From Chrysomallon squamiferum (Eukaryota > Animalia > Mollusca), in assembly GCA_012295275.1 (NCBI GenBank), contig CM022679.1:8618001-8682000 (forward strand): DNA of 64,000 nt. Reading direction: 5' to 3'. A program made the position numbers and the translations under genes. Below are positions 5,941 through 62,889 of this stretch, one piece after another. The first letter of the stretch is position 1. Every line of letters begins with the position of its first letter. The notes under the pieces were generated by a model. It made no database searches, had not been told where the DNA came from, and saw nothing but the letters and a program-made list of their open reading frames with translations.

Positions 5941-6008
<68 letters not shown>

Positions 6009-28655: not shown

Positions 28656-28699
<44 letters not shown>

Positions 28700-31070: not shown

Positions 31071-31656
31071 AATTTCTCTACTGAGTTTATAAACATCTGT
31101 ATTAATTTACATGAAAATAATAAGTATATTATCTATTTTAAAAAGACCAAAACAAACAACACAAAAAATACATTAAAAACAAGTAAAAAAAAACCCCCAA
31201 AACAAGAGTTATTTAATGTCTAATCCAGTTTCAAATTCTGTGATGTAACTGCAACAAGCTTTATCAGCTTTATGAAAAATGAGCATGCACAGAAATGTCA
31301 AATCTTCTTTATACATAGACAAAATGCCCACTGTCATGTCCAAATAACTGAAATAGAAGGAAATTCAATTTAAAAAACAAAACAAGCAAAATGGATCAAA
31401 ATAAGATACACTGTAAAATGACATAAAACATTTCTTACACTAATATTTGTATATCACTATTAAAGCTGTCATCCAAAACAATTTTTTTGAAAGATAAATA
31501 CATTTTTAAAAAGCACCAATGATTGGGTGTATTGAAAGTATATATTTTAAACCTCTGTATTTGTTTGAGAATTTGACAAGAGGTTAACCTGATTAACCTG
31601 ATTACTAACTAATTATTCCATTTGATCATAACTGTGACTATTTTCCACTACTGATA

Positions 31657-32865: not shown

Positions 32866-35800
32866 TCAGTTTAGTTTCTTGTTCCAATGTCCTGGGCGTC
32901 TTGATTGCTTAGTTCTCATGTTGTTTGATTTTAATCGGCCTCTTTTCTTTTCAATAAACTTAAAGTAAAAAAATATTGTAATATTATTATTTGATTACAA
33001 ATTCTTATTAAATTCAATATCGAGAGAAGCAATAGCAAAAATTCAAGCCAGTAAAGCACATAATCTACCTAACTTTTCAGCAGGTTAATTAATTTTGTTT
33101 CCCTGCATATGCATACATTGTCAAATTACTTCTAATTATGCCTTTATGAAACTACATTTATAAAACAAAACATCACGATTGAAGGTTCTTTGTACAAAGT
33201 CTGAATGAACAAACTAATCAGACTGAAATATAATTTGACATTTTGTCATAACCAGAATCAGCTTATTTTAATCAAACCGTTCCACAAATGTAGTTTTTTT
33301 TTGATAAATTTAATTTATTACGGTAATTTTAATTACAGAATTCCAAAGTGTTAGGTGTTTTAACGGAGATCTCTTCTTCTTTTTCAGATTTAATGAAATT
33401 TAGCATTCACAAAAAGCTAAATTTTATTGGAACTAACTGACTTTTGACAATTTTTGACAATTTGAGACAAACAAAGTGGCAATACCACCTATTTTGCTCT
33501 CTGAACTGAACACTGTGTAATTATCCAAATACCAAATTGATTATAAATCATAGTCTTTTGTAAATATTATTTATGTATTTTAATTTCGAATTTAAAAAAA
33601 ATGTCTAATACCTTTATTTGCAGCAGTAACTAGAATAAACACTAACCTAAATCATTTAAGGGTGCAAATCCAAGGTGAATTTCCTCTAGAAGAGTTGTCT
33701 TTAATTTAAGAATTTCTACTTTAAAATCAAATCTTTAAAGCTAAGTTTAAAGGATGAATTTTATAATTTCTACACTCTGCATAAAACTACCTTTAATCAA
33801 ATATTTGTTCTCTACGTTTGACAAATATCCTTGAAAGAAACTGAAGAGTTTCATCACAAAACACAATGCATAGACTGGCACTCTTTTCAGATAAGCAAAG
33901 GAGAATGGCATGATACTTCATTTAGAAATAAAAGCACATTAATTATCAGTACCAATAACTTGTTTATATCATGCTTTACCAAAAACTGAAAGAGAGTTAT
34001 CTATTTTAATTTTTGGGAATAATTATATAATTAGTCATATCAGTCAAATATTAAAATAGGCTGAGGCTGAATTGTTAGACAATTTATCATAAACATATTA
34101 AATCTGATTTAAATATTAGCTATACATATTTCTGTTTATTACTTTTATTTAATATATATATATAAATCATAAAAATGATTATTCCTCGTAATAATATAAT
34201 ACTAAATAAAATTAAAGTTAATACACTTAATCAAAAACTTATATAAAATAACATTTCCTTAACCCACAGCTTAGCTGTCTGTTTATGAAATGTTAAACAT
34301 TTGTTATGTCATTATCCCATAGAAAATCATAGAAAAAAATACTGACCTCTCTCAAATACTGCACTGTGCACTCGATGTGTTCCACACAGAGGTCTGGATG
34401 AAAAACAATCTGTCTTGCTTTCTCTTGATATAATTTCTGCATTGTGCATGGCCAAAGTGCCTGGTTTTGAAGTATTCTTGGACCAAGCTGCTCACCAGGG
34501 TGAACATTAGGATCATTAATAAATCTGTAAGCAAATCGCTTCAGCGCTGCTAACAATCCTTCGAGTAATTCAAGATCAGTTTGTTCTGTTAGAGTTCCAA
34601 GACTTGTCTTCAGCTCTTCTTTTAATGAAACTTTGAATTTTTCATCTAAAAAGGTGATGGCTGTATCAGCCTCAATACCCTCAACAAATTCAAAAAGAGA
34701 TGTCAAGAAGCAGAGTTTAAGTGGCATTAGAAAATGCACTACTTCAGGGGACCTTTGGAGAAAGGACACTGACCACTGTGTAATGTAATACTGAACAGTG
34801 TAATCTGTCTCATTTTTTGGTAGTTTAACTTTTTTCATTAAAGCAAATATGGTTTCCAGATATTCAAGGATAATTCTCAAATTAGAATGACTCTGACATT
34901 TAAGTGTCAATATTGTATTTTTCATATCTTCTGTTATTGGTTTTTGCTGGACAAAATTTTCAATATCTTCAAAAGGTGTTACTGATCTATAAAGACAATC
35001 CCCCAAAAAAACAATGATTGGAAAACTGTCTGTGATCTCCAGGAATGGTTTGTTAACCAGTAAGTAATCTGACAAAAGATGGTCTATAGAATAATAGTCA
35101 TAACTGTGAACTCTTCCATGGTCATAACCAGAGCAGCACTGTGAAAATCTTAGAATAGTTTCTGATCGTTTTCTTTCAGGATCATCCGAAGTCCAGTGCA
35201 CAATTTCTTTCTCAGTAATTTCTTCAATTGGAAAAACAGATAAGTTAGCTGATTTATCACTTTTCATGAAACTCAAAGGAAGAGATTTATAGACAAGACT
35301 TATTATCAATACATCCTCCAAAAATTCATTTTGCATGTTCTTTAAGGCAATAAGAATCTGATACATAGCTGAATTTTTGTCAACAATGATGCAGTCTTCC
35401 ACTGTGCTGTTCATGGTAATTTGGGGAATTGATCCCAAGTTTTTATTGTACTTTTTAAGAAGTTTTTCTTTTGACCGCATTGTAATCCATGATTTTTTAA
35501 AATCTACAAACAGCTTTTCTGAATACTCTTTCTGATCATCTCTGTCAATGAAGTCAAGTAGATATAATTGTTTACATTCATTTCTTGTCTTTTTATAACT
35601 GATCTTTTTAAAACAAAACAAATGCCATTTCACAACAGACAGCAAACAATCTAGTAAAGACAGTTGATTTTCTTTTGCAAAAACAAGTGCTAAAAACGGA
35701 TGTTTCTCTTCCATCATGTTTATCACAAACTCTGACTTCATGTTTTGATTAGTTGGTGGTAGTGAGTACCTTAAAAACATTGGAAATTTGTCTTCATTCA

Positions 35801-38800
35801 GCCCACTTTCATGCAAAATCCTGTCAAAGCTCATCTCAGGTTCTGTACATTTTCTTATCAAATCCTGAAGTTTTGAAAATCGAAATCTAGTAATTTCATC
35901 AGTCTTTTTAGAGATGGAGTCTTCAAAGAATTGTCTCTCTTCGGGTGTTTCAAAACAATTATTATCTTGGAGCAACCGTTTCATTTCTTGCAACAGCAAG
36001 TGCAGAAATGTTCCTACCTGTCCATTTCCAAGAGCTGTCATCTGCCGTAATGTATTCCAATGTGTGGAGAGATGTTTTCTCAAATAGTCTTCTACATTTA
36101 CATCTTCTCCAAGATTAAGATGGACTGCAAGGTCTTCTTTGGTGCAAAATCCAAGTGCCAAAGATCCTGCAAAACAGGCATGAAGTACAAGATTTAAAAA
36201 CCTGAAGGTAACTGGAGATAATGTACGTCCAGTCGTGATTATATCAGCGTTTGGGTCACTAGGAATATAACCTTTTATACTAGGTGTGTCTTCTAAAATA
36301 AGAGAAAGATTTTTCTCAGTTATTTTGTCACTTTCAACAGTTTTGGTGCATGCTGTACAATGTCTTATATCTGAGTCACTGGGCACTGCAGAAATAAATC
36401 TGCACGAACACTGAAAAAAGTTTACTGTTTTGACTTCAGTCTTCAAAGATAAAAGGCCTGTTTTTTCATCTTCAGATTTTGTTACTGCAGGTAAGTAATA
36501 TCTGGCTGTTTGAGATGCATCCACTAAACATTTGAAAATTAAAGACTCCTCAGAATTTGTCAAACAGCAGCACATAACATGAATTAGAAAAGACGACATT
36601 TGAAATTCTTCTTCTTCTGATTCTTCTGAAAAGTTAAAAAGTGAAGAAAAATGAAAACTGTCCTGACAGCAAAGACAGCGTAATAATTTTAAAGCGTACT
36701 TTGACATTCCTAGATCTTCTGCCTTTTTGCACATTTTTTTACCAAATGTTTGGTTTTCTTCTGACAATGGCCCAATTATTTTTGAGAATAAAAATCTGTG
36801 AAGTGTGAATGAAAACAAATCAAACAGCTTTGAGCCATCATTGACAGCGTCACGCATCAACTTTTCCCAGTTCTGTTCTGTTTTCTCAGACATCTGCTGA
36901 TCTAAACCTAGTGGATTGAGATCAAAAATACAATTCAAATTCTCCTGTTTAACATCAAAAGTCTTGAATCGTTTACACAACTTGTTGAAAGTTATGAATC
37001 CATTTCCCGCAACAGCATATTCTATGAAACAGACCTGGATTCCAGAATTTTGTATATTTTCTTCCTTGAAAATGTTTTGTGATTCAAGACGAGAAAAATT
37101 TTCAAACTGATATTTAATACAGGCAACTGCTATTGTCTGAGACAGAGAGAATTCAGATGAAATAAACTTGCTCAGATAATCTCTGAAATCTTCATCCTTA
37201 ATTTCATTATCAACAAAGAAATGGTGGAAAATATCAGTACAGATGCAGCCTAGTGAAGAAATTTTGCCCTGTTCTTTTAGTGTTTTGTCTAAATTTACAA
37301 AGAATTTGTTAGCCCCAATGCTGCTCTCATCCTTTATAATATCACTCAATGTTTGAGGGCCACAGTTCAAACCTAAATTGCTTCTGATGGCTAAATGTAA
37401 TGCAGGACCAAACATATGATAATTACCTTTGTCTAACAGTTTTTTACTCAGAGCAGTGTCTAAGACCCATTCCATCACCTCTGTATCAGGATCTGCTGCA
37501 AAACAACACCTCACATAAAAAGAATAGAACTGCAAGATATATTCAATTGGTATATTGTCTTTCTCTAATTTCTGCAGAAATTCAGAAATAAAATGAAAAG
37601 TTTTCTTAGAGACTAAATCATTTTTAATCAGCTGGCCACCAAGTGTAACTAACCACTGTTCTGAGATTCCATGTGATATTACAATCAAATCAGCAAAATG
37701 AATGCATAATGATAATGCATGAGACTCAACAGGCATTTCTGACACTTCATCAGCATGAGTAAGGATCATGTTTGTGTTTCTTTGCCAGTTTCTACAACTA
37801 TTCTCACTGTTCACATTAGCAGTGGAACGCAAAAGCTCTTGGCAAATATGTTTTGTAATTCTGGACCATGTGCTTTCAAAGTTATTTTCCTGATCTTTAT
37901 TTGCTTCCATTAGTTTTGTAAATTCTTCAAAATATTCATTTGATTTATCAGGTTGTACTTGCATACAAGCATCAACAAGATGTTGAACTGAATGAAATTT
38001 CTTTTTGTTAAGCCAGTATGTGATATGAAGTTTGGTAACAAACATTGAAAATTCTTCATTTGATAGAGGAATTAAAGAGTTGATGATTTGTTTAAGCATA
38101 GTGATCTTTTGCTTGACGTTCAATACCAAAACAGTTTTAGAGGACACCATAATGCAAAAATCATCAAAGTAATCATCCTTTTGAGTACTGTAAGGACTTT
38201 CAAAAAAGGCAGGTGCTGCCTTTTTCACGTCAGTCAAATATCTGTCAAATAATTCATAAATTTCCTCCTTAGATAAATAGTCTCTGTCTTTCTCATCCAT
38301 GATTATCTGACATTCTTTCATACATTGTTTTTGTAATTTATCTTCAATTTGATTAAAAAATACTTTGCTAAATGGATGTTTCAGTTCTAATAGTAAATCA
38401 GGTCCATAAAAGCATTCTGGACCTGATGGAAGGGGTTCTTCTGAAATATCAACAATTTCTGTATTGGTCAAATGATTTATCCATATTTCTGTTTTCTGTG
38501 AATCATCTGTCTGCCAGTAACATTTATTCCATGCGTTGAACACTTCAACTTTGTGCACAACTGCAGACAAAGGGTGTTTGATATAGCTGATGACCACTTC
38601 ATCAAGGGCATCCATGAAAGTTGAGAAATCTAGAAGTTTGCATCTCTCCACAGCTACATCAAATTGCCATTTTTCTTTTTCCTGCACTTTTTTATTGTTT
38701 TCAAGCCAATGCCAAATAACCTTTTCAATTGCATGCATAACAGATTTTGTTTGTTTAATGCTTTCAATTATTTCATGCAGGTTATCCAGAGTCCTGAAAT

Positions 38801-41800
38801 CATTACTGTACCGAATGCATGTGAAAGCCCAAAACATGAGTTTACTTATTTGATCATGAAGTGGCTTATTCATTCTTAGAATATCATAAATAGATTTGTC
38901 ATACATGTCTTCCAGAGAAATGCTCCTTGCCACTAAATTGTCAATAGTTGTAAGTTTCCATCCACTAAGGAAATTAATAAAACACAGGTTTTCGTCAATA
39001 GCTCTTCCAAGGTGAAGAATGATAACAACGTGTTTCTCATAAACATCTGCTACACTTGTTTTCATATATTCTTTTCTCTGATTTTCAATTAGAGTTCTGA
39101 AATGAAGAATCTTTCTACCATCTGTATTTGACAGGCTGTGAAAAATCAAAATCTTCTTTTGTGTATCTGACCAGAATGCTTCCAGTTTTGATGAGAGTTC
39201 TTTTTCACATTTAAAAATTGCCATGTGTTCAACCTGACATTGTGAATGGATATCATTTTTTAAATTTTCATGTATATTAGTATGTGTAAGGACGATAATG
39301 TTTTGCCCATGGTTATCAGGTAATGAATTTATAAATGATCCCAAACCTTTGTGTGCTGTAAGTTCAAAGTAATTGTTTTGCAGACGAGCATATTCTGTTT
39401 TATCTTTGGTTGACAAAATTGATTTCTTTCCTCGAATGACGCCTTCAGGTGTGCATACACTTATCAGTTCATTCTTGCACTTTTCAAAAATTGCTTCTTT
39501 AGAAGACTGTGCATTTTCTTTTGTGCAAAAACTATAAACAAGAGATGGAACAAGTTCTTTACCATACACAGGAATCAGATCAGATTTTTTAAATTCTGTG
39601 ATTTCTATTTTACTTAAATCTGTAATCCAGTCTTCCAGCTGCTGAGTTATTTCTCTTTGCTTTGAATTAAGCACATCAGTAATTCGCAGAGTCTGTTTCT
39701 CAAATCTGTTAAGAAAAGGAGGATCAGAACAGGTCAAATTCCTGCCGTCAACTATAACTATGCAGCGAAAGTTCTCATGAACATGGCACCAAGAGTTACT
39801 GTATGGGCCTAAAGCAATACGGCACATGTTTTTCCCTGTTATACTTGTATAATTTTGATTCAGCATATCATACAAACTTCCATATATTTGTTCCAGGCCA
39901 TTCAAAATTAGGACCTTACCTTGCTCCATGTAAAGAATGATTTTACTGAGAATTCTGTAGTTGTATTCATCTCCAATATCATCCTGAAACTGACTTCCAA
40001 TGATTGTAACATATTCTCTTCCAATTTGTAGCAGAATGTTTTCAACTAATCCAAGAACTGCATCTCCTTCAGTAATAACCATCAAATTCCTGGCATTACT
40101 GTCTTTGATATTATCTTCAATTAGTTTTATAACAGGTACCAGTTTATCTACATCTGATGATACATTTGTTTTCTTTTTCTTCATATTGTCTGAAAACATC
40201 TTTATCAGTTTATTCAAATATTCATTACCTCCAAAATTTCTCTGCAAACCTTTTAAGACACAGTGCAATTTACAGTCATAGCTATTGCTGTTCTCATGCT
40301 TATTAATTTCTCTAGCTATGTATTTCACCAGTGAGTAAAAATCTCTCAGTCCGTGAAAGTTTGGCAAAACATCTGACATGTCTTTTATAAACTGACAGTA
40401 AGTTTGGGCTATAACAGCGAGAATGTCATTGTCTATTCTACAGCCCTCTTTTGACGTAACAACACTGATAGCATGTCCCGTTTCTTCAAGCTCTTCAACA
40501 TTCAAATCAGGACGTGAAACATGTATTACACGATTCATTTTAGCAGGATCGAGAGCCCAGTTAGATATTCCTACAACAGAAATTTGAGCATCTTCAGGCT
40601 CAAGCAAACTGTGCAGCACTTTCAAAGGATGAAAACGTGAATTTTCTGCTAGACCCACTTCATCAAGAATGACAACAGGTAGAACATTCTCTCTATTTGT
40701 ATTATTTAGAAAACTCTTTGCCTTTTCAAATACTCTGGTAATTCCATCAGATGTAGACATTTCTGAACCTTGATAGGTAAAAAAGTAGAGCTCAGGCAAT
40801 GTTTTAAAAAACTCATTTTCAGAATCTTTGCCTTTCAGATTGTCTTTTATCAGCTGTAAAGACAATGATTTGCTACTTCCTGGTTTTCCAACCAAAAATA
40901 CTGGCATTTTATTCAAGATGCACACCAAAACAACAAATACATTTTCCTTCAAAGCAGAATTTTTGGCAATTCCTTCAGGCATATGCATCCTGTTCAATAT
41001 GTCGGCTTGTGATTCTGAAATAATTTTTAAAATGTTGCTATCTTGCCACACTGAATTCTTCTTGAAAACATTTATTAGTTTGTTTCTATACTCACGCCTA
41101 TTTTTTTCTTCTGATATTCGATAGTAGTATGTATGAGCTAGACTGAGAATAACTGAATTTCTTAGCACTTCATCAGGAGATGTGCCTTTTAGCTTTATTT
41201 TAGAAAACCATCTGATGAGTTTTCTACATCGATCGATTTCCCTCAGACTAACACAGTAATGCGTGCTTTCAAACTGTCTTATTAGACGTTGTGATTCTGC
41301 TAAAAGTTGCACAAGAACTGGAACTTTTTCTTTAGGCAGTATATCTCTTACCATTCTTTGAATGTATGAATATTCGTCCTTTTCGCCAACGGTACCAAAA
41401 TCCCAGACATAGTCCATCATATTTTCTGGTAATGGATGAACTCTGTAAATCAAATCTGACATTGCATCCTTTTTTATTTTACCTTGAAGACCTGATGTAC
41501 ATCCAGTGGTTTTTAATTTGTAAGGATTGCAAGCAGCAATGAGTGCTACATTTTCAGGTAATTTATGGTCGTAACAGATACGGTGACACATGATACTTGT
41601 AATCAGTCCTAAATGACATGATGTGTTGATTTCATCTAAAAACAACCACAGGGGCTCTTTTGATGAACATGCTTTTGCAATGATGGAGCAGATTCTTTCA
41701 ACAATCTGCTTTTCATCTATGCCTGCATGAAAATTAAAAACTTCCATTTCGATGCCAGAAATTTCTGACAAATATTTAATAACACTTGTTTTGCCACAGC

Positions 41801-44800
41801 CTGTTTCACCCATCATAATAACTGGAATGTTTGCATCTATTCTTTGGCAAATTAACACCATTTTCAGAAAATTGTCAAGAGTAATGGCGTAAGAATGCTG
41901 TAACTCTTCTAAAATATCAGGTGCAATATCTTTCTTTTCTTTTCGGACTATCCGCTGAAGCATCTGTTGTAGTTGCACAGGACTAAATTCTGTCAGATCA
42001 GGAAGATCTTGTCTTTCTTGCAGCTTGTACAGCTCTTTTATATCACGAGGAACTTCATCCCTTTTTCTATAGATAAACGACACTGTATTTTGGTCATGAT
42101 TGTTAAATGCAATAAGCAAATGATTGCTATCTTCCCATCTAATTAAACCAGTTTCCATTCTCTTCACAAGAGCATCAGCAGACATCTGACTACTTATATG
42201 TCTGACAGCTAATTGTTGTTTATTGCGACAAGCATTTACTGATCGCTTAGCAAATTCTTTTGATAACTTTAATAAGGCTTTAAGGAAATTGTCTTTAACA
42301 TTTCTTGCCGGCAGGAAATGCATGTATTGAAGTTGTTCATTTTGAAAAAATGTACTTAGTGACATTCTTTTCAGCTGCTCTGCAAGAACATTTAAGGCGA
42401 TATTGACCAATGTGAATGAGCTGTCATTTTCAAAAGAAAAATACTTTACAAGAATTTCTTGGCACTTCTTTTCATGTAGGGGCTTTAAAGAAGCATCTTC
42501 TTCAAAGTGTAAATCTTTAACATTTAAGGTGCTGGTTTCCATTGCATGCACATAGTGACATACAACCTGTATGGCTGATTTTATATCTGCAGAAACCTTG
42601 TAGTTGGAAAAGTTTTCCCATTTTATATGTTTTCTTTTAAACATTCTTGTTGTGAACAGAGAGTTTTGCAGACAGTTATTGACTGTGTTTGCAATTTCAA
42701 TAAAAACCTTCTTCGGTTGAATATAGACACGACTTGACTGATGTGAGAGTGTCTTCAAAATGATCATTTGATATATCAATAAATCTAGATTCATAGGATC
42801 AGTGACTAGTTCTACACTGATGTGCAGAATTTCAGAATGTTGCAGCTTTATTTTTTCAAGCTGCTTCAGAATGTCTTTTATATCTATGTTGCCATTAATA
42901 TAAACGGTTTTCAATTTACTTTGTTCTTTTTCAGTTTCATCTTCAATAAATGTTGTTTTCCCAAGACCTGGAACTTCCGATGTCACAGTGAAAACCATTG
43001 GAAATAATTTTTCATAACATGCACTTAATTCCTCTTCTTCCATGGGAGTTATGCGGCACACATAATCAGAAAAATACTCCAGGAATGGGTGACCTGTTTG
43101 ACCTCGGCATATAAGTACTAGTTTAGATAACTGCTGTAGGTGTTGTTTTATTTCATTTGCCAGAGAAAACTGCAAGGAGTTGGGTAATTTCTCCACCATG
43201 GCAATGCAGTATAGCTCAAGGTTTTTATTTCTGTCATTTCTTTTTGAAGACTGCCGACACCTTAGTAATATTAAGTTAATTTCCTCCATTGTTGTGACTT
43301 CATGACAAAATAGCACTTGATGAGGAAAAGGAAGTGATTTAGTTGTATTTTTATACATTGTCATTAATACAGGTATGACCTGGTTGGAATCCTGTTCTAA
43401 TGAGACAATCTGCAACTGCTTATTAAATGTGAGACTTTTAGATGAAGTTTTTTGAGAACCTGGAAAACTTCTTGGTTCTAGTTTTAAGTTTTGAAGAACC
43501 TTGTCAAAAATATTCCCCAGTAGTGAAAGTCCATAGTTATTTTTAACTGGTTTACTGTTATTGAACAATTCACATGCTTTTTGAAAGCAATCGCCTTGGA
43601 ATCCAGTAAAATGCAGAATCTGCAAAAAGTATTCTTTTTCATCACCTTTCTTCAAACATTGTTTTATTTTCCACAACTGCTGAGGATGAAAATAGCAAAG
43701 CCAAAAGAATTTTTCATATTTTTTTTTAAAAATATTTTCCCAGATTTCTAATTGATTTTTCAGCTCTTCAGCTTTGTATTTCAACTGACTGACTGTTAAT
43801 TTAATGTTAAACCCAAAGACAACATAGTCTTCATGGCCCGTTTGGTGAAGCCTTTCCAAAAAAGAAGATATTTGTAAAATGTTATCAATGTAGTTAATAA
43901 ATTGGCGATAGGAATCAGAAGTGAGGTTCAGCGTGTCTTTCTCAGTGGCTGCTGTGTTAATTAACAGTAAGGCCCGGATTCGAAAATCACTGATATCAAA
44001 TTTTGAATACACAAATTTCCTGTTTTTCTTTTGGCATTTGACCTTTACCAAACATGTGCCCTCAGCATCAAAGCTGAAACTGATTACTGCAGATGTATCT
44101 TTAACTGTCAACATACTTATCACTTCTTTAGTGACTGCAGTGTGACTAGCAACGTTATGAAACAAAGATCGCAGACTGCTGACATGTTTTGCTGTTTCTG
44201 TTATCATTTGCAAGAGTTTTGTGCAACCAGTACACTTAGCAGCATCACAAATGATTTTGAATAAAGTCTTGGCATTGATTATCTTGATGTCTTTTTTACG
44301 AAAATGACTGACAAAGCTTTTGATATGCATTAAGGTTGATACTGTAGATGGATGAAGCTGATGTTCGGAATATTCCTCTACTATATTAATTAAATTTCGT
44401 ACGTCTTCATCAACAATTTCAAGCAGAAACTCCACTAGATCAGGACATTCTACAAGCTTGCGTATAACTTCAATGACATCTTTCTTCACCTGCCCTAAAA
44501 TATCATCCATTTGTTCTTTAGCATCATGCAGATCTTTCAGTGTGAAATCAGAACTGTTTTGGTTGAAATTTAAAAACAAATTCATTGCATTTGAGAAATC
44601 AGCATCATTTTTAATGTCAATCTTAAACACATTAAGAAAGTGTTGCAAAGTATTTATTTCTGACTGGTATTTCTTGTAATCACTGAGCATAAGCAATCCA
44701 ATTTTTATCCATGGAACAAATGTTTGTTTCATTTGCTTTTCAGCACAGTCTAGCTCTTTTTCCATATCTCTTGAATTTATAATCGATTCATCAATAATTT

Positions 44801-45869
44801 CACATCTTATATTTTGTTTATCAAAATAAGGCTGCCATAAAGCTGAATATTTTTTAATTCCATCTTTCTTCAGATTATCAAGTATGTTTACTGTGACAAC
44901 AAAGTTTTTTTCCAAACTTTCTGGTTTCATTTCTCCAAACAAAATTGGTAAATACTGTTCAATCTCTGATTCTGGATAAATATCTTGTAAACTCTTGACT
45001 GTGTCATCAATAATGTCTTGACAAACATTCCAAAATACATCTGAGTTGCTCAGCTGTTCAATCTCTGGAGCAGATTTCTTAACGTCTTTGAGCATTTCCC
45101 AGAAAGTCATATTCTCAAAGTCAACAATATGAATATTACCTTTATCCATGTAACACTGTTCTTTCAATTTCAGACTTTCCATTGCATTATCGATGTCTGG
45201 TATGGCTCTTTTGGAATGCTGTTTAAGGTTTTCTAATACCTTTTTCATCAGTTCGAATGTCTGATCAGTTTCTTTTAACACTGATATGGCTTTATTCCAA
45301 CCATATATAATATCTGATACATCTTTGTTACAAATTTGTTTCACTGAATCATATATGTTTTTTATTTTTTCATCGACATCTTTAGTTTTCTGAAGAGTTC
45401 TCACAAAACTGCATGATATTTTCAAGGAGACCATTCGTTCTGCAATAGTACAGAGCAGATCTGTTGTCACCTGTATTTCAGGTTGTTGATGAATGCCTTT
45501 GATAACACAGTTTTCAATAGGAAAGATCTTGATCCAAAATCTCCATGTTTTCATTATTTTTGCAAATGATTCTTGTAAATTTTCACATGCTTTCAGTTTT
45601 GCATATTCCAGCACAGTTATAATAACTTCCATATGGAAACTAATAAAAAAGATAAAAAAAAGAAGAAAAGAAATAAATAAGCATTTGTTTTTGACATACT
45701 CTACTATACAAACTGTTTTATTAGATAAAGAAATACTTGGACCTTTCCATTCATTTGTTCTTGTAATGCTTTATTCCCCTTCTTTTTGTTTTTTTACAAA
45801 GAGTGACAATTTTGTTCAGTTTTTTTACTGTATAGATAGTTGATATATGTATGAATGACTGTATGAATG

Positions 45870-45917
<48 letters not shown>

Positions 45918-50553: not shown

Positions 50554-50645
<92 letters not shown>

Positions 50646-53600: not shown

Positions 53601-56600
53601 GATAAAGGATCCTCAACCTGTATATATCTTTTCATAAAAAGTTAACTACTTAAGATGGTTCTAAGTAAACACATCACTGTTGGGATGTAACTCTTTGGAT
53701 GTAATGTTATTTTGAATAAACATAGTAACCAAAATGAATATTCTGCAATAAACGTCAGCCTGTCGTATGCTCTCAAAAATGGAGCTTTGTACATCTGTGG
53801 ATTATCTACCTGTGATTCCTCATGTGATTTGTATGATTCATGGTCTTCACTGGATGTCTTCAAACAAATCATCTTCTGTTATAGAAATATTCTCTTGCCC
53901 TTCAAATTTTGAAACCAACAAGCTGTTAGCAGAATCAGCAATCCTGTTGCCATTCTCGATTTCTTTTTCTTCAGTCAATGCAGCCTGAAAAACAAATCAG
54001 ATTTATTAATAGTATGTAAGTTTCGAAGTTTTTTTTGATGCAACAGTCTGTGATGCAATAAATAATCAGGAGGAAATCAATAAGATAAATAAGAGAATTT
54101 TACAGAGATAAATAACATCATGTGGCATTTGTACAAATCCATTCATGTTACAGTGTGTAAAGCAGCTTTGGAAATCACACTACCACGTATGTAAAACCAC
54201 TATTTTCCAGTGAACAGCAATGGATATTGTTTAATACAGGTTGAGAACTGAAATACTTGGTACTGGAAGTGTTTCAGATTTTGGAATATAAGGAAAGTCT
54301 GAGAATAGGATCTAATTCCAAGAATAAACTTTATTTATAGTTTTTAAAATTAATATTTTTATAATTTTGTGCATAAAATTAGTACATGCAAAATAAACTG
54401 AAAATTATAAGAAGCAGATTTTTTCGATTACTGATCAAAGTTTAGATTTTGTAGCTTTTTGGATTTCGGAATTTCAGATAAAGAATCCTCAGCCTGTATA
54501 CACCTTAAGATGGCTCTAAATAAACACATTATTGTTGGGATATAAAACACAGTGGGCATGGTAACTAAATAGAAAGTACAATATTTTTTAAATTAAAGAT
54601 GTTTTATGATTCGTAGAGTCACGTATAACTCTTTGGATGCAATGTTATTTTGAATAAACATGGTAACTGAAATGGAAATATTTTGATTTAAACTGGATAT
54701 TCTGCATTAAACATCAGCCTACCGTCTCATATCAAAACTGGGGCTTTCTACATTTATGGATTATCTACCTGTGATTCCTCTATAGCTGTAATGACTGTTT
54801 CTGCTGCTTTAGATTGATGATCATCAGAATTGTCTATCACCTCATCAATCTTATTTTTCTGTCCAGCAGTCTCAACTGTTGTAACGCTAACATTAGAAGC
54901 TATATCAACCGACGAACCATGTGATGCCTCAGTTTGTCCAGGGGTGTCTTTAAACAGATCATCATCTGTTCCAGAAATATTCTCTTGCCCTTCACATTTT
55001 GAAACAGATGAGCTGTTAGCAGAGTCAGCAACCCTGTTGCCATTCTCGATTTCTTTTTCTTCAATCAATGCAGCCTGAAAAACAAATCAGATTTATTAAT
55101 AGTATGTAAGTTTCGAAGTTTTTTTGATGCAACAGTCTGTGATGCAATAAATAATCAGGAGGAAATCAATAAGATAAATAAGAGAATTTTACAGAGATAA
55201 ATAACATCATGTGGCATTTGTACAAATCCATTCATGTTACAGTGTGTAAAGCAGCTTTGGAAATCACACTACCACGTATGTAAAACCACTATTTTCCAGT
55301 GAACAGCAATGGATATTGTTTAATACAGGTTGAGAATCTGAAATACTTGGTACTGGAAGTGTTTCAGATTTTAGAATATAAGGAAAGTCTGAGAATAGGT
55401 CCTAATTCCAAGAATAAACTTATTTTATATTTCAGTTTATACAAATAGTCTGCAAGATTTTAAAATTAATATTTTCATAATTTTGTGCATGAAATATGAT
55501 TAGTACATGCAAAATTGACTGAAAAATATAAGAAGTAGATTTTTCTGATTATTGATCAAAGTTTAGATTTTGTAGCTTTTTGGATTTCGGAATTTCAGAT
55601 AAAGAATCCTCAGCCTGTATACACCTTAAGATGGCTCTAAATAAACACATTATTGTTGGGATATAAAACACAGTGGGCATGGTAACTAAATAGAAAGTAC
55701 AATATTTTTTAAATTAAAGATGTTTTATGATTCGTAGAGTCATGTATAACTCTTTGGATGCAATGCTATTTTGAATAAACATGGTAACTGAAATGGAAAT
55801 ATTTTGATTTAAACTGGATATTCTGCATTAAACATCAGCCTACCGTCTCATATCAAAACTGGGGCTTTCTACATTTATGGATTATCTACCTGTGCTTCCT
55901 CTATAGCTGTAATGACTGTTTCTGCTGCTTTAGATTGATGATCATCAGAATTGTCTATCACCTCATCAATCTTATTTTTCTGTCCAGCAGTCTCAACTGT
56001 TGTAACGCTAACATTAGAAGCTATATCAACCGACGAACCATGTGATGCCTCAGTTTGTCCAGGGGTGTCTTTAAACAGATCATCATCTGTTCCAGAAATA
56101 TTCTCTTGCCCTTCACATTTTGAAACAGATGAGCTGTTAGCAGAGTCAGCAACCCTGTTGCCATTCTCGATTTCTTTTTCTTCAGTCAATGCAGCCTGAA
56201 AAACAAATCAGATTTATTAATAGTATGTAAGTTTCGAAGTTTTTTTTGATGCAACAGTCTGTGATGCAATAAATAATCAGGAGGAAATCAATAAGATAAA
56301 TAAGAGAATTTTACAGAGATAAATAACATCATGTGGCATTTGTACAAATCCATTCATGTTACAGTGTGTAAAGCAGCTTTGGAAATCACACTACCACGTA
56401 TGTAAAACCACTATTTTCCAGTGAACAGCAATGGATATTGTTTAATACAGGTTGAGAATCTGAAATACTTGGTACTGGAAGTGTTTCAGATTTTAGAATA
56501 TAAGGAAAGTCTGAGAATAGGTCCTAATTCCAAGAATAAACTTATTTTATATTTCAGTTTATACAAATAGTCTGCAAGATTTTAAAATTAATATTTTCAT

Positions 56601-59600
56601 AATTTTGTGCATGAAATATGATTAGTACATGCAAAATTGACTGAAAAATATAAGAAGTAGATTTTTCTGATTATTGATCAAAGTTTAGATTTTGTAGCTT
56701 TTTGGATTTCGGAATTTCAGATAAAGAATCCTCAGCCTGTATACACCTTAAGATGGCTCTAAATAAACACATTATTGTTGGGATATAAAACACAGTGGGC
56801 ATGGTAACTAAATAGAAAGTACAATATTTTTTAAATTAAAGATGTTTTATGATTCGTAGAGTCAGGTATAACTCTTTGGATGCAATGCTATTTTGAATAA
56901 ACATGGTAACTGAAATGGAAACATTTTGATTTAAACTGGATATTCTGCATTAAACATCAGCCTACCCTCTCCTCTCAAAACTGTGGATTTCTACATTTAT
57001 GTATTATCTACCTGTGATTCCTCTGTAGCTGTAATAACTGTTTCTGCTGCTTTAGATTGATGATCATCAGAATTGTCTATCACCTCATCAATCTTATTTT
57101 TCTGTCCAGCAGTCTCAACTGTTGTAACGCTAACATTAGAAGCTATATCAACCGACGAACCATGTGATGCCTCAGTTTGTCCAGGGGTGTCTTTAAACAG
57201 ATCATCATCTGTTCCAGAAATATTCTCTGCCCCTTCATTTTTGAAACAGATGAGCTGTTAGCAGAGTCAGCAACCCTGTTGCCATTCTCGATTTCTTTTT
57301 CTTCAGTCAATGCAGCCTGAAAAACAAATCAGATTTATTAATAGTATGTAAGTTTCGTAGTTTTTTTTGATGCAACAGTCTGTGATGCAATAAATAATCA
57401 GGAGGAAATCAATAAGATAAATAAGAGAATTTTACAGAGATAAATAACATCATGTGGCATTTGTACAAATCCATTCATGTTACAGTGTGTAAAGCAGCTT
57501 TGGAAATCACACTACCACGTATGTAAAACCACTATTTTCCAGTGAACAGCAATGGATATTGTTTAATACAGGTTGAGAATCTGAAATACTTGGTACTGGA
57601 AGTGTTTCAGATTTTAGAATATAAGGAAAGTCTGAAAATAGGTCCTAATTCCAAGAATAAACTTATTTTATATTTCAGTTTATACAAATAGTCTGCAAGA
57701 TTTTAAAATTAATATTTTCATAATTTTGTGCATGAAATATGATTAGTACATGCAAAATTGACTGAAAAATATAAGAAGTAGATTTTTCTGATTATTGATC
57801 AAAGTTTAGATTTTGTAGCTTTTTGGATTTCGGAATTTCAGATAAAGAATCCTCAGCCTGTACACACCTTAAGATGGCTCTAAATAAACACATTATTGTT
57901 GGGATATAAAACACAGTGGGCATGGTAACTAAATAGAAAGTACAATATTTTTTAAATTAAAGATGTTTTATGATTCGTAGAGTCATGTATAACTCTTTGG
58001 ATGCAATGCTATTTTGAATAAACATGGTAACTGAAATGGAAACATTTTGATTTAAACTGGATATTCTGCATTAAACATCAGCCTACCCTCTCCTCTCAAA
58101 ACTGTGGATTTCTACATTTATGTATTATCTACCTGTGATTCCTCTGTAGCTGTAATAACTGTTTCTGCTGCTTTAGATTGATGATCATCAGAATTGTCTA
58201 TCACCTCATCAATCTTATTTTTCTGTCCAGCAGTCTCAACTGTTGTAACGCTAACATTAGAAGCTATATCAACCGACGAACCATGTGATGCCTCAGTTTG
58301 TCCAGGGGTGTCTTTAAACAGATCATCATCTGTTCCAGAAATATTCTCTTGCCCTTCACATTTTGAAACAGATGAGCTGTTAGCAGAGTCAGCAACCCTG
58401 TTGCCATTTTCGATTTCTTTTTCTTCAGTCAATGCAGCCTGAAAAACAAATCTGATTTATTAATAGTATGTAAGTTTCGAAGTTTTTTTTTGATGCAACA
58501 GTCTGTGATGCAATAAATAATCAGGAGGAAATCAATAAGATAAATAAGAGAATTTTACAGAGATAAATAACATCATGTGGCATTTGTACAAATCCATTCA
58601 TGTTACAGTGTGTAAAGCAGCTTTGGGAATCACACTACCACGTATGTAAAACCACTGTTTTCCAGTGAACAGCAATGGATATTGTTTAATACAGGTTGAG
58701 AATCTGAAATACTTGGTACTGGAAGTGTTTCAGATTTTGGAATATAAGGAAAGTCTGAGAATAGGTTCTAATTCCAAGAATAAACTTATTTTATATTTCA
58801 GTTTATACAAATAGTCTGCAAGATTTTAAAATTAATATTTTCATAATTTTGTGCATAAAATAAGATTAGTACATGCAAAATAAACTGAAAAATATAAGAA
58901 GTAGATTTTTCTGATTATTGATCAAAGTTTAGATTTTGTAGCTTTTTGGATTTCGGAATTTCAGATAAAGAATCCTCAGCCTGTACACACCTTAAGATGG
59001 CTCTAAATGAACACATTATTGTTGGGATATAAAACACAGTGGGCATGGTAACTAAATAGAAAGTACAATATTTTTTAAATTAAAGATGTTTTATGATTCG
59101 AAGAGTCACGTATAACTCTTTGGATGCAATGTTATTTTGAATAAACATGGTAACTGAAATGGAAACATTTTGATTTAAACTGGATATTCTGCATTAAACA
59201 TCAGCCTACCCTCTCCTCTCAAAACTGTGGATTTCTACATTTATGGATTATCTACCTGTGCTTCCTCTATAGCTGTAATGACTGTTTCTGCTGCTTTAGA
59301 TTGATGATCATCAGAATTGTCTGTCACCGTATCAATTTTATTTTTCTGTCCAGCAGTCTCAACTGTTGTAACGCTAACATTAGAAGCTATATCAACCGAC
59401 GAACCATGTGATGCCTCAGTTTGTCCAGAGGTGTCTTTAAACAGATCATCATCTGTTCCAGAAATATTCTCTTGCCCTTCACATTTTGAAACAGATGAGC
59501 TGTTAGCAGAGTCAGCAACCCTGTTGCCATTTTCGATTTCTTTTTCTTCAGTCAATGCAGCCTGAAAAACAAATCTGATTTATTAATAGTATGTAAGTTT

Positions 59601-61501
59601 CGAAGTTTTTTTTTGATGCAACAGTCTGTGATGCAATAAATAATCAGGAGGAAATCAATAAGATAAATAAGAGAATTTTACAGAGATAAATAACATCATG
59701 TGGCATTTGTACAAATCCATTCATGTTACAGTGTGTAAAGCAACTTTGGGAATCACACTACCACGTATGTAAAACCACTGTTTTCCAGTGAACAGCAATG
59801 GATATTGTTTAATACAGGTTGAGAATCTGAAATACTTGGTACTGGAAGTGTTTCAGATTTTGGAATATAAGGAAAGTCTGAGAATAGGTTCTAATTCCAA
59901 GAATAAACTTATTTTATATTTCAGTTTATACAAATAGTCTGCAAGATTTTAAAATTAATATTTTCATAATTTTGTGCATAAAATAAGATTAGTACATGCA
60001 AAATAAACTGAAAAATATAAGAAGTAGATTTTTCTGATTATTGATCAAAGTTTAGATTTTGTAGCTTTTTGGATTTCGGAATTTCAGATAAAGAATCCTC
60101 AGCCTGTACACACCTTAAGATGGCTCTAAATAAACACATTATTGTTGGGATATAAAACACAGTGGGCATGGTAACTAAATAGAAAGTACAATATTTTTTA
60201 AATTAAAGATGTTTTATGATTCGTAGAGTCACGTATAACTCTTTGGATGCAATGTTATTTTGAATAAACATGGTAACTGAAATGGAAATATTTTGATTTA
60301 AACTGGATATTCTGCATTAAACATCAGCCTACCGTCTCTTATCAAAACTGGGGCTTTCTACATTTATGGATTATCTACCTGTGCTTCCTCTATAGCTGTA
60401 ATGACTGTTTCTGCTGCTTTAGATTGATGATCATCAGAATTGTCTATCACCTCATCAATCTTATTTTTCTGTCCAGCAGTCTCAACTGTTGTAACGCTAA
60501 CATTAGAAGCTATATCAACTGAAGAACCATGTGATGCCTCATGGTGTCCAGGGGTGTCTTTAAACAGATCATCATCTGTTACAGAAATATTCTCTTGCCC
60601 TTCACATTTTGAAACAGATGAGCTGTTAGCAGAGTCAGCAATTTTGTTGCCATTTGTTGTTTCTTTTCCTTCAGTTGATGTAACCTGCAAAATAAACAGA
60701 TTTATTAATAATATGTAGCTGTTCAAAGTTTTGGAGTTTTTTTTTAATGGAACTATCTATGATGCAATAAATAATGAGGCGGAAATCTATAAGGTAAATG
60801 GACAGTATGTTTCTGAGACAATCAAAATTAATTAGAATGTGTAAATGTTTTCAAAAAATAAAAAATAAATCTGATATGCAAGATACAAAATTATAATTAA
60901 CTATACAGAAACACCAAATCAATTAAATGTTCATTTTTGATGTCAGTTAACATATTTATTACCTTCACAACTCTACTGGCATCCCTGAAAGATAAAATTA
61001 GAAAAATAAACTAAAATATAATAGTATTTTAATATTATGGTGAAGATTACAACATGATAGAAAAAGCATCTGATAATTTGAATAAAATAATATATTTAGA
61101 ACTAAAGTCTAAAATATCTTAATTAAATTTTAATTATCCATAGAAAGTGCATAAAAAGAGAGACATTATTACCAAACATTTTCGATACTTCAGCTCTTTT
61201 TTCCTTATAATATGTTTAAAAAGTTATCTGTTTCAAAAACAAATAGTACAATACTGTAATGTATTCTGTGGTGATATGCAAAACTTTAAATCATACTTTT
61301 GTCATAATTATTGAAGTTATTTCTAGTAAAAATATTAAGTTATAACAAAGTTTATGTATTTGTCTAACATGCAGGATAGTTTAATTAAGCTATGAAAATG
61401 TCTGATTTTCTCTAAAGCTGCACATGAATTTTGCATCATTAAACAGATTAACAAAAATGATATATTAATGAGATTACATATAAAATTACACACATACACA
61501 C

Positions 61502-61552
<51 letters not shown>

Positions 61553-62443
61553 AAACTGGATCTATTTTGCTTTATATCAGACATTACCATAAAGTCATTC
61601 ATGTTAAAGATGTTTTGCAAATACTGCCAAAAAAATATTAAAAATTATTAAACTCAGTTACCTGTTTTAATATACTAATTTTTTTGTTTGTTAATTTCTC
61701 AACATTTTTTTTACCTATGTAATAATTTCACAGACCTAATGGCATATAAATATGTCATAATATGAAATTAAGTTGCACAATAATTTAAAGTTATACTTTA
61801 TGAGAAAATATACAGGCAAATATTATTATTTTGGAAGGTTGGTGTGGTATACCAAATATAAATGTATTATCCATTTTATGCAGCAAAAAAAAAAAAAAAA
61901 GAAAAAGAAAAAAAAAAAGCAGAGACAAATTTTACAGCTTTGGTGGTGAAAATGAAGCTTACCTAAAATAACATCGAACTGATCGTCTTGTTGTTTTCAG
62001 TAGCTCCAACTCCAAATCAATACTTTCATCACCAAACACATCAATTTTTTCAGGCACAGAATTAATAAAATCTGTGAGTTTTTTCTGCATACTGCCATCA
62101 TCAACTACTTTCATAAAATTAGTGAACTCTTTTTCAGAAGATATGCTGAAGTATGATTTACCATCTTTGACTTCTTCAAAATGAATGAAAGAATCATCTT
62201 TGAAAATAGTCTGCAACTTTTCCTTACATAACAGATTAAAGACAAAATTCTTCTGGGCATAGGTGGCCTGTAACTCTTCTGGAGTAACATAAATGTTAAG
62301 ATCAACCGAAAAAACTGAAATTGAGAAGTACACACTTGCTAACTGCCAGACAAATAGATCATTTAATAAACATATGTACTTGTATAAAAAGCCAGTTTAC
62401 AAAAGAAATTATTAAGTTTTTAATGTAGTTTTATATGAGTTTA

Positions 62444-62517
<74 letters not shown>

Positions 62518-62889
62518 GTGCGGGGTTATGTAGACAAAATTAATATTTATCATCCAAAAAAAAATAATAATAAAAAAATAACAAATATGATTACCTAGAT
62601 TTTTATTTCTTTATCTTCAACAATGTGATCTTATGTCCATGTAAATTTATAACTGCTAACATTTTATATTTTACATATGGACTGCCATTCAGTAAACTGG
62701 CTGGACAAATAGTTGTTTAGATATTTTACATAATAAAAAAAAAAAAGAAAAAAAGAGCAGGAAGAAGAGAATATGTCTTTGCTTTAAATATTATTTAGTT
62801 GCTTGTGCATGTGTTTGAAGAAAGATATTACCAAATGGTTCAACAAGGATGGGTGGATCCTTTTCCAGTTCTGCACTTTTTTCTGCCAT
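32866..62889 (-). CDS. RNF213: Giant RNF213/mysterin-like AAA+ ATPase with N-terminal TRADD-N-like domain, tandem acidic repeats and CARD; ~5150-5250 aa
   Basis: Model: 62889-62832 (ATG in AGCATGG context, in-frame stop upstream), 62314-61963, 60984-60963, repeat exons 60684-60379, 59561-59256, 58438-58133, [57316-57012 frameshifted], 56195-55890, 55074-54769, [53984-53810 frameshifted], then 52266-52120, 51462-51297, 50797-50709, 48865-47163, 45639-34347, 32958-32866. All junctions are GT-AG with matching phases. The RNF213 family assignment is solid; linkage of the 5' exons and the last exon is inferred from phase. It is probably a lineage-specific paralog rather than the strict ortholog. 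Confidence 0.75.
34347..45639 (-). CDS. RNF213: 11,293-nt exon encoding the RNF213-like stalk, dynein-like AAA+ ring and E3-like module
   Basis: 3779-aa ORF with RNF213 motifs: LPFPHQVLFC..TTMEEI, PGLGKT (~42960), PVIMMGETGCGKT (Walker A 41810-41787), LFLDEINT, IAACNPY, YRVHPLP..VWDFG, VSLRE, ALKENVF, VFLVGKPGSSKSLS (40889-40866), VVILDEVGLAE..PLKVLHSLLE, VGISNWALDPAKMNR, GLRDFYSLVK, SLYDMLNQNY, PFLNRFEK. Acceptor TTTTATTAG at 45641-45640; donor GAG|GTCAGT at 34347. Confidence 0.95.
45872..45916. repeat. (GT)n microsatellite
   Basis: Direct observation. Confidence 0.95.
47163..48865 (-). CDS. 1703-nt exon of the RNF213-like gene (N-arm: beta-rich, possibly CBM20-like start, then helical stalk)
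   Basis: 565-aa ORF bounded by acceptor TTTCAG (48867-48866) and donor AG|GTAAAT (47163). The phase-2 end joins the giant exon in frame (DC-S-FHM). Confidence 0.85.
49067..50760. repeat. Old local duplication including a truncated copy of the 50797-50709 exon
   Basis: 49067-49510 resembles 50168-50530. 50090-50155 duplicates the 3' half and GTAAGT donor of the exon (50693-50755) but lacks its acceptor. Confidence 0.75.
50556..50640. repeat. (CT)n microsatellite
   Basis: Direct observation. Confidence 0.95.
51297..52266 (-). CDS. Two exons encoding a RIG-I/MDA5/MAVS-type CARD (death fold)
   Basis: Spliced peptide EKLVQAIHLDFKKNVDPKHLMPHLSDVLNPGNQ|SEIEAIQNSKGRHEAALRMLEILKTKDDWFEFLQTALCTKDIQQKHVAEIF. 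It shows the D-P..lmp.L, I....G...A...L..L....W...l..AL.......A pattern of RLR/MAVS CARDs. Confidence 0.8.
52890..53235. repeat. Intronic minisatellite, ~48-bp unit with a 25-bp subunit
   Basis: GATTAGATTTTGAAGTTGGAAGTTTGATTTCTCTAAAACCACAAGAAT repeated ~6-7 times with variants. Confidence 0.85.
53810..53984 (-). pseudogene. Degenerate, shortened repeat exon (175 nt, frameshift and in-frame TGA)
   Basis: Same splice sites as the 306-nt exons, but the length is 3n+1 and it reads ...LFEDIQ*. Confidence 0.65.
55326..55617 (+). mobile_element. Tc1/mariner-pogo (Tigger4/MER46-like) MITE, ~292 bp; further copies at 54237-54496, 56448-56739, 57569-57860, 58692-58983, 59815-60106 and a 3' remnant ending at 53620
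   Basis: TA|CAGGTTGAGAATC ... GAATCCTCAGCCTG|TA: imperfect TIRs with a TA target-site duplication. The subterminal TTTGGATTTCGGAATTTCAGAT repeats resemble recalled Tigger4/MER46 ends. Confidence 0.8.
61507..61546. repeat. (GA)n microsatellite
   Basis: Direct observation. Confidence 0.9.
61963..62314 (-). CDS. N-terminal exon of the RNF213-like gene, TRADD-N-like alpha/beta domain (tentative)
   Basis: Open exon with a phase-1 acceptor and a phase-2 GTAAGC donor. Peptide FEEVKDGKSYFSISSEKEFTNFMKVVDDGSMQKKLTDFI...SIDLELELL resembles the TRADD-N-like 'v.eGs..f...s...l..l....dG.lq..L' pattern. Confidence 0.6.
62449..62514. repeat. (GA)n microsatellite
   Basis: Direct observation. Confidence 0.95.

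What the first reader, a model, noticed from the sequence alone, without database searches (positions are those of the whole stretch)
32866..62889. CARD- and TRADD-N-like-fused giant RNF213-like AAA+ protein: candidate invertebrate innate-immune sensor with a new architecture
Seen: 14 phase-compatible exons give one ~5150-aa ORF: TRADD-N-like - (acidic 102-aa repeat)x5-6 - RLR/MAVS-type CARD - FFAT-like motif - N-arm - intact AAA ring - E3-like region. Known: vertebrate RNF213 is a pathogen-sensing AAA+/E3 that ubiquitylates bacterial LPS and has no death-fold domain, while RLR-type CARDs nucleate MAVS/caspase signalling filaments. Inference: an RNF213 chassis has been coupled to a death-fold signalling output, in the manner of an NLR or RLR receptor. 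I do not know of this architecture being characterised.
Basis: partly seen in the sequence, partly recalled or inferred. Interest (0 to 1): 0.85.

Follow-up and report, generated by a model that had tools for sequence, protein, structure and literature searches.

The report
CARD-armed RNF213 relative without ligase site
A likely mollusc gene encodes a giant relative of the human microbe-tagging enzyme RNF213 that lacks the known tagging chemistry and likely carries an alarm-relay (CARD) domain, so it would detect microbes and pass on a signal instead of tagging them itself.

Summary
The gene is real. Fourteen GT-AG exons give one 5150-aa frame. RNA contigs (4 runs, 1 study) splice 47163>45639 in 4 of 4 runs and 50709>48865 in 3 of 4. 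Both CARD half-exons match Pfam CARD_2, and RIG-I is their only PDB hit. Their join to the AAA part is inferred (about 85%), not read. The first domain is TRADD-N-like but is not new to this gene: it is the native N-terminus of a mollusc RNF213-like clade. The CARD was found in no relative (0 of 123; only 16 have the full N-terminus). Main correction: the 'E3-like region' has no RING, and the RZ finger is a four-cysteine zinc ribbon without the catalytic Cys/His. This holds for most of the clade. The AAA2-4 motifs are intact. An N-arm patch differs 7% from the RNA, mostly non-synonymously. Best reading: a paralogue of RNF213 that is likely ligase-dead and senses ligands, signalling through TRADD-N and a lineage-specific CARD. 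The mechanism is untested. No description was found in 10 literature searches.

The parts
62832..62889 (-). First coding exon (ATG at 62889); supplies the start of strand 1 of the TRADD-N-like domain
   Evidence: the gastropod-seeded profile aligns from residue 17, across this junction
61963..62314 (-). TRADD-N-like (RRM/ferredoxin-fold) domain, the native N-terminus of the mollusc clade
   Evidence: AF2 pLDDT 90.6; 1f3v Z 6.9, rmsd 3.5, 107 aligned, tied for top; homologue P0123 nearest to PF20694 clusters at 0.91-0.92; profile iE 4.7e-9; no Pfam hit
60963..60984 (-). 22-nt micro-exon that restores phase 0
   Evidence: needed for the frame; not seen in RNA
54769..60684 (-). Tandem array, about 1.12-kb unit at 97-99% identity; five intact 306-nt exons give a 510-aa acidic, likely disordered linker; the copy at 57316-57012 is out of frame
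53810..53984 (-). Truncated, out-of-frame seventh repeat copy (pseudo-exon)
52120..52266 (-). CARD, first half (phase 0/0)
   Evidence: PF16739 3-36, E 0.0084; RIG-I 106-136, E 0.33
51297..51462 (-). CARD, second half (phase 0/1; weak donor)
   Evidence: PF16739 40-81, E 7.5e-6; RIG-I 143-181, E 0.0011; donor survey
50709..50797 (-). Acidic linker exon with an FFAT-like motif (EFQDAIE after an acidic run; motif consensus recalled)
   Evidence: spliced to 48865 in 3 of 4 RNA runs
47163..48865 (-). Beta-sandwich at the CBM20 position plus helical N-arm; polymorphic patch at 48094-48552
   Evidence: AF2 pLDDT 83.3; best Foldseek hit human RNF213 9g08, E 5.5e-5; RNA differences
34347..45639 (-). 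Giant exon: stalk, dynein-like AAA core (AAA2 P-loop near 42980, AAA3 near 41813, AAA4 near 40889), RING-less E3 scaffold, pseudo-RZ zinc ribbon (Cys codons at 36410, 36404, 36359, 36350), C-terminal part
   Evidence: RNF213 E 4e-113; profile to RNF213 E3 core E 8.3e-13; motifs
32866..32958 (-). Last exon, basic tail and stop
   Evidence: basic tails in full-length relatives; not tested with RNA

Best explanation
This is an expressed member of an invertebrate paralogue clade of RNF213 that keeps the ATPase motifs, lacks the RING and the catalytic RZ residues, and likely carries a spliced-in RLR/MAVS-type CARD, so it would work as a cytosolic microbe sensor that signals through partner proteins instead of ubiquitylating its target. 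Steps: (1) shown: gene model, N-arm and AAA splicing, AAA2-4 motifs, loss of RING and of the RZ Cys/His. (2) Inferred, about 85%: both CARD exons are in the long mRNA. (3) Inferred by analogy to human RNF213: the CBM20-position sandwich and the variable N-arm patch bind microbial surfaces, and nucleotide binding in the AAA ring gates coating. (4) Inferred: crowding of the tethered CARDs nucleates a MAVS-like or caspase CARD partner, and TRADD-N recruits a ligase such as a TRAF in trans. (5) Speculative: the FFAT-like motif holds the sensor at ER contact sites.
For: Frame and splicing. The CARD exons lie between two parts that are homologous to parts of single full-length relatives. The FFAT exon starts in phase 1 and is spliced to the N-arm; in the model only CARD exon 2 and exon 1 end in phase 1. 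A 404-nt overhang equals 402 plus 2 letters shared by alternative upstream donors. CARD identity. At the RZ position of human RNF213 the clade has CxC...CxxC without the loop that holds the catalytic Cys, and the window has no free Cys and no His after it. In vivo RNF213 activity needs that Cys (PMC11549300, passages; bioRxiv 2021.05.10.443411, passages). No RING pattern in 0 of 121 proteins. N-arm patch: 33 differences in 459 nt, 4 synonymous; P about 2e-7 if dN/dS were 0.2. It lies next to the sandwich, where simian RNF213 is under positive selection. TRADD-N binds TRAF MATH domains, and molluscs have CARD+TRADD-N adaptors (PMC8195603, section 8 and supplement 4).
Against: The CARD exon 2 donor is weak, and the CARD-FFAT cassette could be skipped in frame. 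No relative has the CARD (0 of 123 by phmmer, best E 0.38; 0 of 23 by Pfam), so no sign of selection on it. The joined CARD was not folded. The uS turn motif that marks TRAF binding in TRADD-N is not conserved in alignment A1 (read by eye). By a loose pattern 31 of 97 clade zinc ribbons hold some internal Cys and 16 of 97 start CxxxH, so loss of catalysis is not uniform. The patch does not differ from neutrality (P 0.17), only 40 of 106 differences were listed, and it could reflect a paralogue. No binding or signalling was tested.
Confidence: 0.5

Rival explanations
1. The CARD-FFAT cassette is a recent insertion into a hypervariable linker. It is often skipped or has little effect, and the protein does whatever the CARD-less clade members do.
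For: The linker varies widely among relatives: the sandwich starts at about residue 176 to 406 in those with a full N-terminus, and one has a doubled TRADD-N. Here the linker holds a young tandem array with broken copies. The cassette is phase 0-0 overall. No CARD in 123 relatives.
Against: The FFAT exon is spliced to the N-arm in 3 of 4 runs and no skipping joint was listed (upstream exons lay outside the laid stretch). Both CARD exons are open and colinear with RIG-I CARD, whereas nearby duplicated exons have decayed.
Confidence: 0.2
2. The protein is still a ubiquitin ligase through a remodelled or cryptic site, and the CARD selects substrates such as RLRs or MAVS, making it a regulator of antiviral signalling.
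For: The E3 scaffold is kept. The zinc-ribbon cysteines are nearly invariant. ZNFX1 hid a second ligase domain (bioRxiv 2025.10.14.682297, passages).
Against: No RING pattern. All four cysteines fit zinc binding, leaving no nucleophile and no His base. No zinc-finger ligase family hit in Pfam for the giant exon.
Confidence: 0.13
3. The CARD is an integrated decoy, as in plant NLR-ID receptors (recalled): it baits pathogen proteins that attack RLR/MAVS CARDs, and the AAA ring fires when the bait is hit.
For: A single RLR-type CARD on a flexible tether in one lineage only fits a swapped-in bait. The conserved TRADD-N could be the real output.
Against: The variable patch found lies in the N-arm; the CARD itself could not be examined for variation. 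No direct evidence.
Confidence: 0.1
4. The CARD mainly belongs to a short TRADD-N/repeat/CARD product that reads through the weak donor at 51296 into a hydrophobic tail and stops at 51226, a MAVS-like membrane adaptor, separate from the AAA protein.
For: Weak donor; the read-through tail has a mean hydropathy of 1.89 over 19 residues, reached by 2.5% of intronic starts. Small CARD+TRADD-N proteins exist in molluscs.
Against: With 10 donors tested, one such tail has about a 1 in 5 chance. The 404-nt overhang fits use of this donor. The TRADD-N exon is homologous to the N-termini of full-length relatives.
Confidence: 0.07

Closest known systems
Vertebrate RNF213 (mysterin; PDB 8s24, 9g08, 6tax)
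   Same: N-arm fold, dynein-like AAA core with AAA3/AAA4 Walker motifs (E 4e-113), E3-core scaffold around the RZ position (E 8.3e-13), variable surface near the N-terminal sandwich.
   Different: No RING; RZ finger replaced by CxC...CxxC without catalytic Cys/His; N-terminal TRADD-N-like domain, 510-aa repeat linker and CARD; most of the protein on one 11.3-kb exon.
Invertebrate 'RNF213-like / rnf213-alpha-like' proteins (Haliotis, Gigantopelta, unionid and venerid clams, scallops, Lingula, amphioxus, corals)
   Same: 41-46% identity over the AAA region, one unnamed relative at 60%. The window groups inside the mollusc clade (99/98), next to gastropods (89/90, long branch). Shared RING-less zinc-ribbon E3 region; molluscan members share the TRADD-N-like N-terminus.
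   Different: No CARD found in any (0 of 123). Amphioxus and coral members examined lack the TRADD-N-like domain. Databases name many as E3 ligases although the catalytic residues are missing.
RIG-I/MDA5/MAVS CARDs (PF16739)
   Same: Both half-exons match the model and the RIG-I CARD colinearly.
   Different: One CARD, internal, attached to an AAA protein instead of a helicase or a membrane anchor.
Metazoan TRADD-N adaptors (Kaur et al. 2021, PMC8195603)
   Same: RRM-like fold; TRADD-N combined with CARD in molluscs.
   Different: No RNF213-like partner in their supplement 4 as stored (0 hits for 'rnf', file cut); uS motif not conserved; no Pfam hit.

Membership tests
RNF213 (active E3 ligase) | Dynein-like AAA+ core with Walker A/B in AAA3 and AAA4 | tested here: met
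   Aligned to human RNF213; motifs present in the window and in 113-119 of 120 relatives. ATPase activity itself untested.
RNF213 (active E3 ligase) | N-arm/stalk with a CBM20 beta-sandwich | tested here: inconclusive
   Eight-strand N-terminal part and RNF213 as best Foldseek hit; no Pfam CBM_20 hit; Atlas lead at 0.81 on a homologue only.
RNF213 (active E3 ligase) | E3-core scaffold | tested here: met
   Profile A2 matches RNF213 at E 8.3e-13.
RNF213 (active E3 ligase) | RZ finger: CHCC zinc site plus free catalytic Cys and His base | tested here: not met
   Window has C4433, C4435, C4450, C4453 only; full pattern in 1 of 120 relatives, GECG-like motif in 0 of 120; definition.
RNF213 (active E3 ligase) | RING domain | tested here: not met
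   Loose RING pattern in 0 of 121; no Pfam RING hit in the giant exon; 7 relatives inspected carry an acidic insert at the likely RING position.
RNF213 (active E3 ligase) | Ubiquitylation of LPS or itself | not testable with these tools
   Needs biochemistry.
RLR/MAVS-type CARD (PF16739) | Profile match over the domain | tested here: met
   Model 3-36 and 40-81 of 93 on two consecutive exons, 16.5 and 26.3 bits; each under the 28.2 cut-off, rough sum above it; RIG-I the sole PDB hit for both.
RLR/MAVS-type CARD (PF16739) | Six-helix death fold | not tested
   The domain is split over two exons and no stored homologue carries it; the joined domain was not folded.
RLR/MAVS-type CARD (PF16739) | CARD-CARD binding or filament nucleation | not testable with these tools
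   No host partner sequence at hand.
TRADD-N superfamily | RRM-like alpha/beta sandwich with kinked helices | tested here: met
   AF2 order E-H-H-E-E-H-H-H-E-H, pLDDT 90.6; 1f3v Z 6.9 with the longest alignment, tied with HUH transposases; Foldseek E 0.046, highest probability 0.69.
TRADD-N superfamily | Sequence-level kinship (PF20694, PF09034, PF13820) | tested here: inconclusive
   0 of 16 members hit in Pfam; homologue P0123 nearest to TRADD-like_N clusters at 0.92/0.91/0.91 and TRADD by structure, TM 0.59; P0123 linked to A1 at 98.4%.
TRADD-N superfamily | uS motif in the beta2-beta3 turn (TRAF contact) | tested here: not met
   Not conserved in alignment A1 (by eye); definition. Filed as TRADD-N-like only.
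NLR / STAND receptor | NACHT or NB-ARC NTPase | tested here: not met
   No NACHT or NB-ARC hit in the giant exon at E <= 1. It may work like an NLR; it is not one.

The most novel reading that the evidence does not exclude
Invertebrates have a whole clade of ligase-dead RNF213 paralogues that act as a third NTPase receptor chassis beside NLRs and RLRs: a variable N-arm senses microbes, the AAA ring is the switch, and the N-terminal linker is a slot for swappable signalling modules (TRADD-N across molluscs, a doubled TRADD-N in one abalone, an RLR-type CARD here) that couple it to TRAF, MAVS or caspase pathways.
Probability: 0.3. Interest if true: 0.88.

Novelty: new variant of a known kind. 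Interest (0 to 1): 0.66.

Why it matters
RNF213 is known as a ligase that tags bacterial LPS, and mollusc studies read expansions or inductions of 'RNF213' genes in that light (PMC9993606, PMC7430831; passages). This analysis suggests that many invertebrate 'RNF213-like' genes lack the catalytic site and carry signalling modules instead. That separates RNF213's sensing and ATPase functions from ligation, and offers a natural system in which to ask what the AAA ring and N-arm do without E3 activity. A CARD-bearing member would link this chassis to death-fold signalling in animals that lack adaptive immunity.

Tried and rejected
No whole genome is held, so paralogues and host CARD partners could not be searched. 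RNA could be laid only on 44500-48950, so junctions 5' of 50797 and the last exon remain unread. Search with CARD exon 2 against proteins of 98-2000 aa: 28 candidates, none at E <= 10 (weak evidence). Search with the N-terminal 771 aa of P0006: only itself among 4105 candidates. An alignment-based search timed out. HMMER over 1.84 billion representatives with the N-arm exon gave 3 hits, none with a CARD. Nine metagenome loci (25-32% identity) gave no CARD and no TRADD-N-like hit. Profile A1 found no TRADD chain by sequence in PDB, and VIA wide gave no match at Z >= 8. VIA on the N-arm model gave only generic helical repeats; chains over 3000 aa such as RNF213 are not aligned. The C-terminal 1604 aa as a single sequence had no significant PDB hit. 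Alignment A3 was used only for the locus scan. The scan's earlier notes had nothing. Literature, search listings only unless stated: RNF213+CARD+invertebrate (20), TRADD-N+RNF213 (29, 0 papers), RNF213+death domain+evolution+expansion (38), TRADD-N+metazoan+AAA+ (39), RNF213+phylogenetic+homologs+RZ finger (51), RNF213+RZ finger+catalytic cysteine (56), RNF213+CBM20 (68), RNF213+mollusc+expanded (72), RNF213+caspase recruitment domain (101), RNF213-like+death (108; its one paper read at the passage, unrelated). No title or abstract start describes this architecture. Otten 2021 is not held. A recalled conserved intron in RLR CARDs was not confirmed in PMC4565553 and is dropped. Subscription papers, bioRxiv supplements and the cut part of Kaur's supplement 4 were not seen and could mention the clade. 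No complex was predicted. An assembly artefact was rejected for the AAA and N-arm part because RNA confirms it; the copy number of the repeat array remains unverified.
Full report
Gene model. The 306-nt acidic exon lies in a tandem array of about 1.12-kb units at 97-99% identity. Five copies are intact; 57316-57012 and 53984-53810 are out of frame. No genome is held. A tree of the AAA3-4 region (33 rows: the window, 28 named and 4 unnamed or distant relatives out of 120) places the protein inside the mollusc clade (99/98), beside gastropods at weaker support and on a long branch. The host is therefore likely a mollusc.

RNA. Four runs of one study hold the gene. Contigs laid on 44500-48950 splice 47163>45639 in 4 of 4 runs. 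In 3 of 4 they continue from 48865 into the end of exon 50797-50709, an exact and unique match. Those contigs extend 119, 450 and 404 nt, while that exon is 89 nt and it plus both CARD exons make 402 nt. A contig would end 2 letters further if two different upstream exons feed the first CARD exon, and the repeat exon and the micro-exon share just 2 final letters. This is inference from length, not a read junction. The donor of CARD exon 2 is the weakest in the model.

CARD. The two exons match consecutive parts of PF16739 CARD_2 (E 0.0084 and 7.5e-6). Each has RIG-I as its only PDB hit, in order. The joined domain was not folded. It was found in none of 123 stored relatives and none of 23 scanned with Pfam. 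Most relatives are single-exon ORFs without an N-terminus: 23 of 120 are long enough and 16 of 123 show the N-terminal domain. Only 120 of 1492 hits were listed, so CARD-bearing relatives may exist.

First domain. A profile from six N-terminal segments of five gastropod relatives, without the window, finds residues 17-137 at iE 4.7e-9 and several bivalve N-termini. The 5' exons thus belong to this gene, and the CARD lies inside it, in a linker that is variable and low in complexity in relatives. The AF2 model (pLDDT 90.6) has an RRM/ferredoxin-like fold. TRADD-N 1f3v scores Z 6.9 (rmsd 3.5, 107 aligned), tied with transposases. Pfam finds nothing. A homologue's domain falls nearest TRADD-like_N clusters in the Atlas (0.92, 0.91, 0.91) and nearest TRADD by structure (link). 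The uS motif defined by Kaur et al. (PMC8195603, section 8 read) is not conserved. 'TRADD-N-like' is fair; TRAF binding is open.

N-arm. Exon 48865-47163 folds as a beta-sandwich followed by helices (pLDDT 83.3), with human RNF213 as best structural hit (E 5.5e-5). The RNA differs from the window at 33 listed places in 459 nt (48094-48552; residues 893-1046, just after the sandwich), 4 of them synonymous. In run X1 the flanking contigs differ at 6 of 1474 letters. This rejects ordinary purifying selection (P 2e-7 at dN/dS 0.2) but not neutrality (P 0.17). Only 40 of 106 differences were listed; for X1 the list covers 33 of at most 36 in that area. An old allele, gene conversion or a paralogue could each explain it. 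In simian RNF213 the CBM20 domain and adjacent stalk are under positive selection (PMC11549300, passages).

AAA and E3 parts. The core matches RNF213 at E 4e-113, and the AAA2 P-loop, AAA3 and AAA4 motifs are kept here and in 113-119 of 120 relatives. A 16-sequence profile of the region around residue 4440 aligns with the RNF213 E3 core at E 8.3e-13. Where RNF213 has its CHCC zinc site with a free catalytic Cys and a His base (passages), the clade has CxC...CxxC. The window has four cysteines and no spare Cys or His. The full RZ pattern occurs in 1 of 120 relatives, the GECG-like loop in 0 of 120, and a RING pattern in 0 of 121. A loose survey finds some internal Cys in 31 of 97 ribbons, so a few members may differ. 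By the membership test this is not an RNF213 ligase, but it is built like one.

Mechanism. Most likely (0.5) a sensor that binds microbial surfaces through the N-arm, switches through the AAA ring, and signals through the tethered CARD and TRADD-N, with any ubiquitylation supplied by partners. Only the anatomy is shown. Rivals: a dispensable or skipped cassette (0.2), a cryptic ligase aimed by the CARD (0.13), an integrated decoy (0.1), a short membrane-anchored CARD product (0.07).

Novelty. Ten searches showed no paper on CARD- or TRADD-N-bearing or RZ-dead RNF213 paralogues. Kaur's table lists molluscan CARD+TRADD-N adaptors but no RNF213 partner in the stored, cut file. All parts are known domains and the CARD is seen once, so this is a new variant of a known kind. 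The clade-wide loss of the ligase site and the TRADD-N cap are the better-supported discovery. Interest 0.66.

Noticed in passing
window 3144-7022, minus strand: Folliculin gene exons (PF11704 E 9.5e-37, PF16692 E 4.3e-20).
   Followed up: partly
window 12670-14997, plus strand: 776-aa open frame, low complexity then coiled-coil-like, no Pfam hit; resembles a large exon of centriolar CCP110 from recall only.
   Followed up: no
window 21800-31100: Second large tandem array, about 875-bp units near 100% identical (22300-28000), with older related copies to 31100; very low GC, likely non-coding.
   Followed up: no
window 50091-50155: Decayed partial copy of the FFAT-like exon with its donor (92% over 65 nt); the RNA loose ends use the 50797-50709 copy.
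   Followed up: partly
window 51296-51226, minus strand: Read-through of the weak CARD donor gives a 23-aa hydrophobic tail and stop, a possible MAVS-like short form; chance about 1 in 5 over 10 donors.
   Followed up: partly
window 46315-46336 and 46797-46817: Short RNA contig pieces with loose ends inside the 47163-45639 intron in runs X1 and X4; probably a repeat transcribed elsewhere.
   Followed up: no
P0019 residues 19-143 and 163-285: An abalone relative has two TRADD-N-like domains in tandem; the second shows a GS turn like canonical TRADD-N (by eye).
   Followed up: partly
P0002: A 5677-aa glomeromycete fungal protein is the second-best hit and has a duplicated AAA region.
   Followed up: no
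Atlas result for P0123 (structure row 2): A 63-member, mostly molluscan cluster of about 878-aa CARD proteins has an unannotated part matching this TRADD-N-like domain at TM 0.58; a candidate partner family or CARD donor.
   Followed up: no
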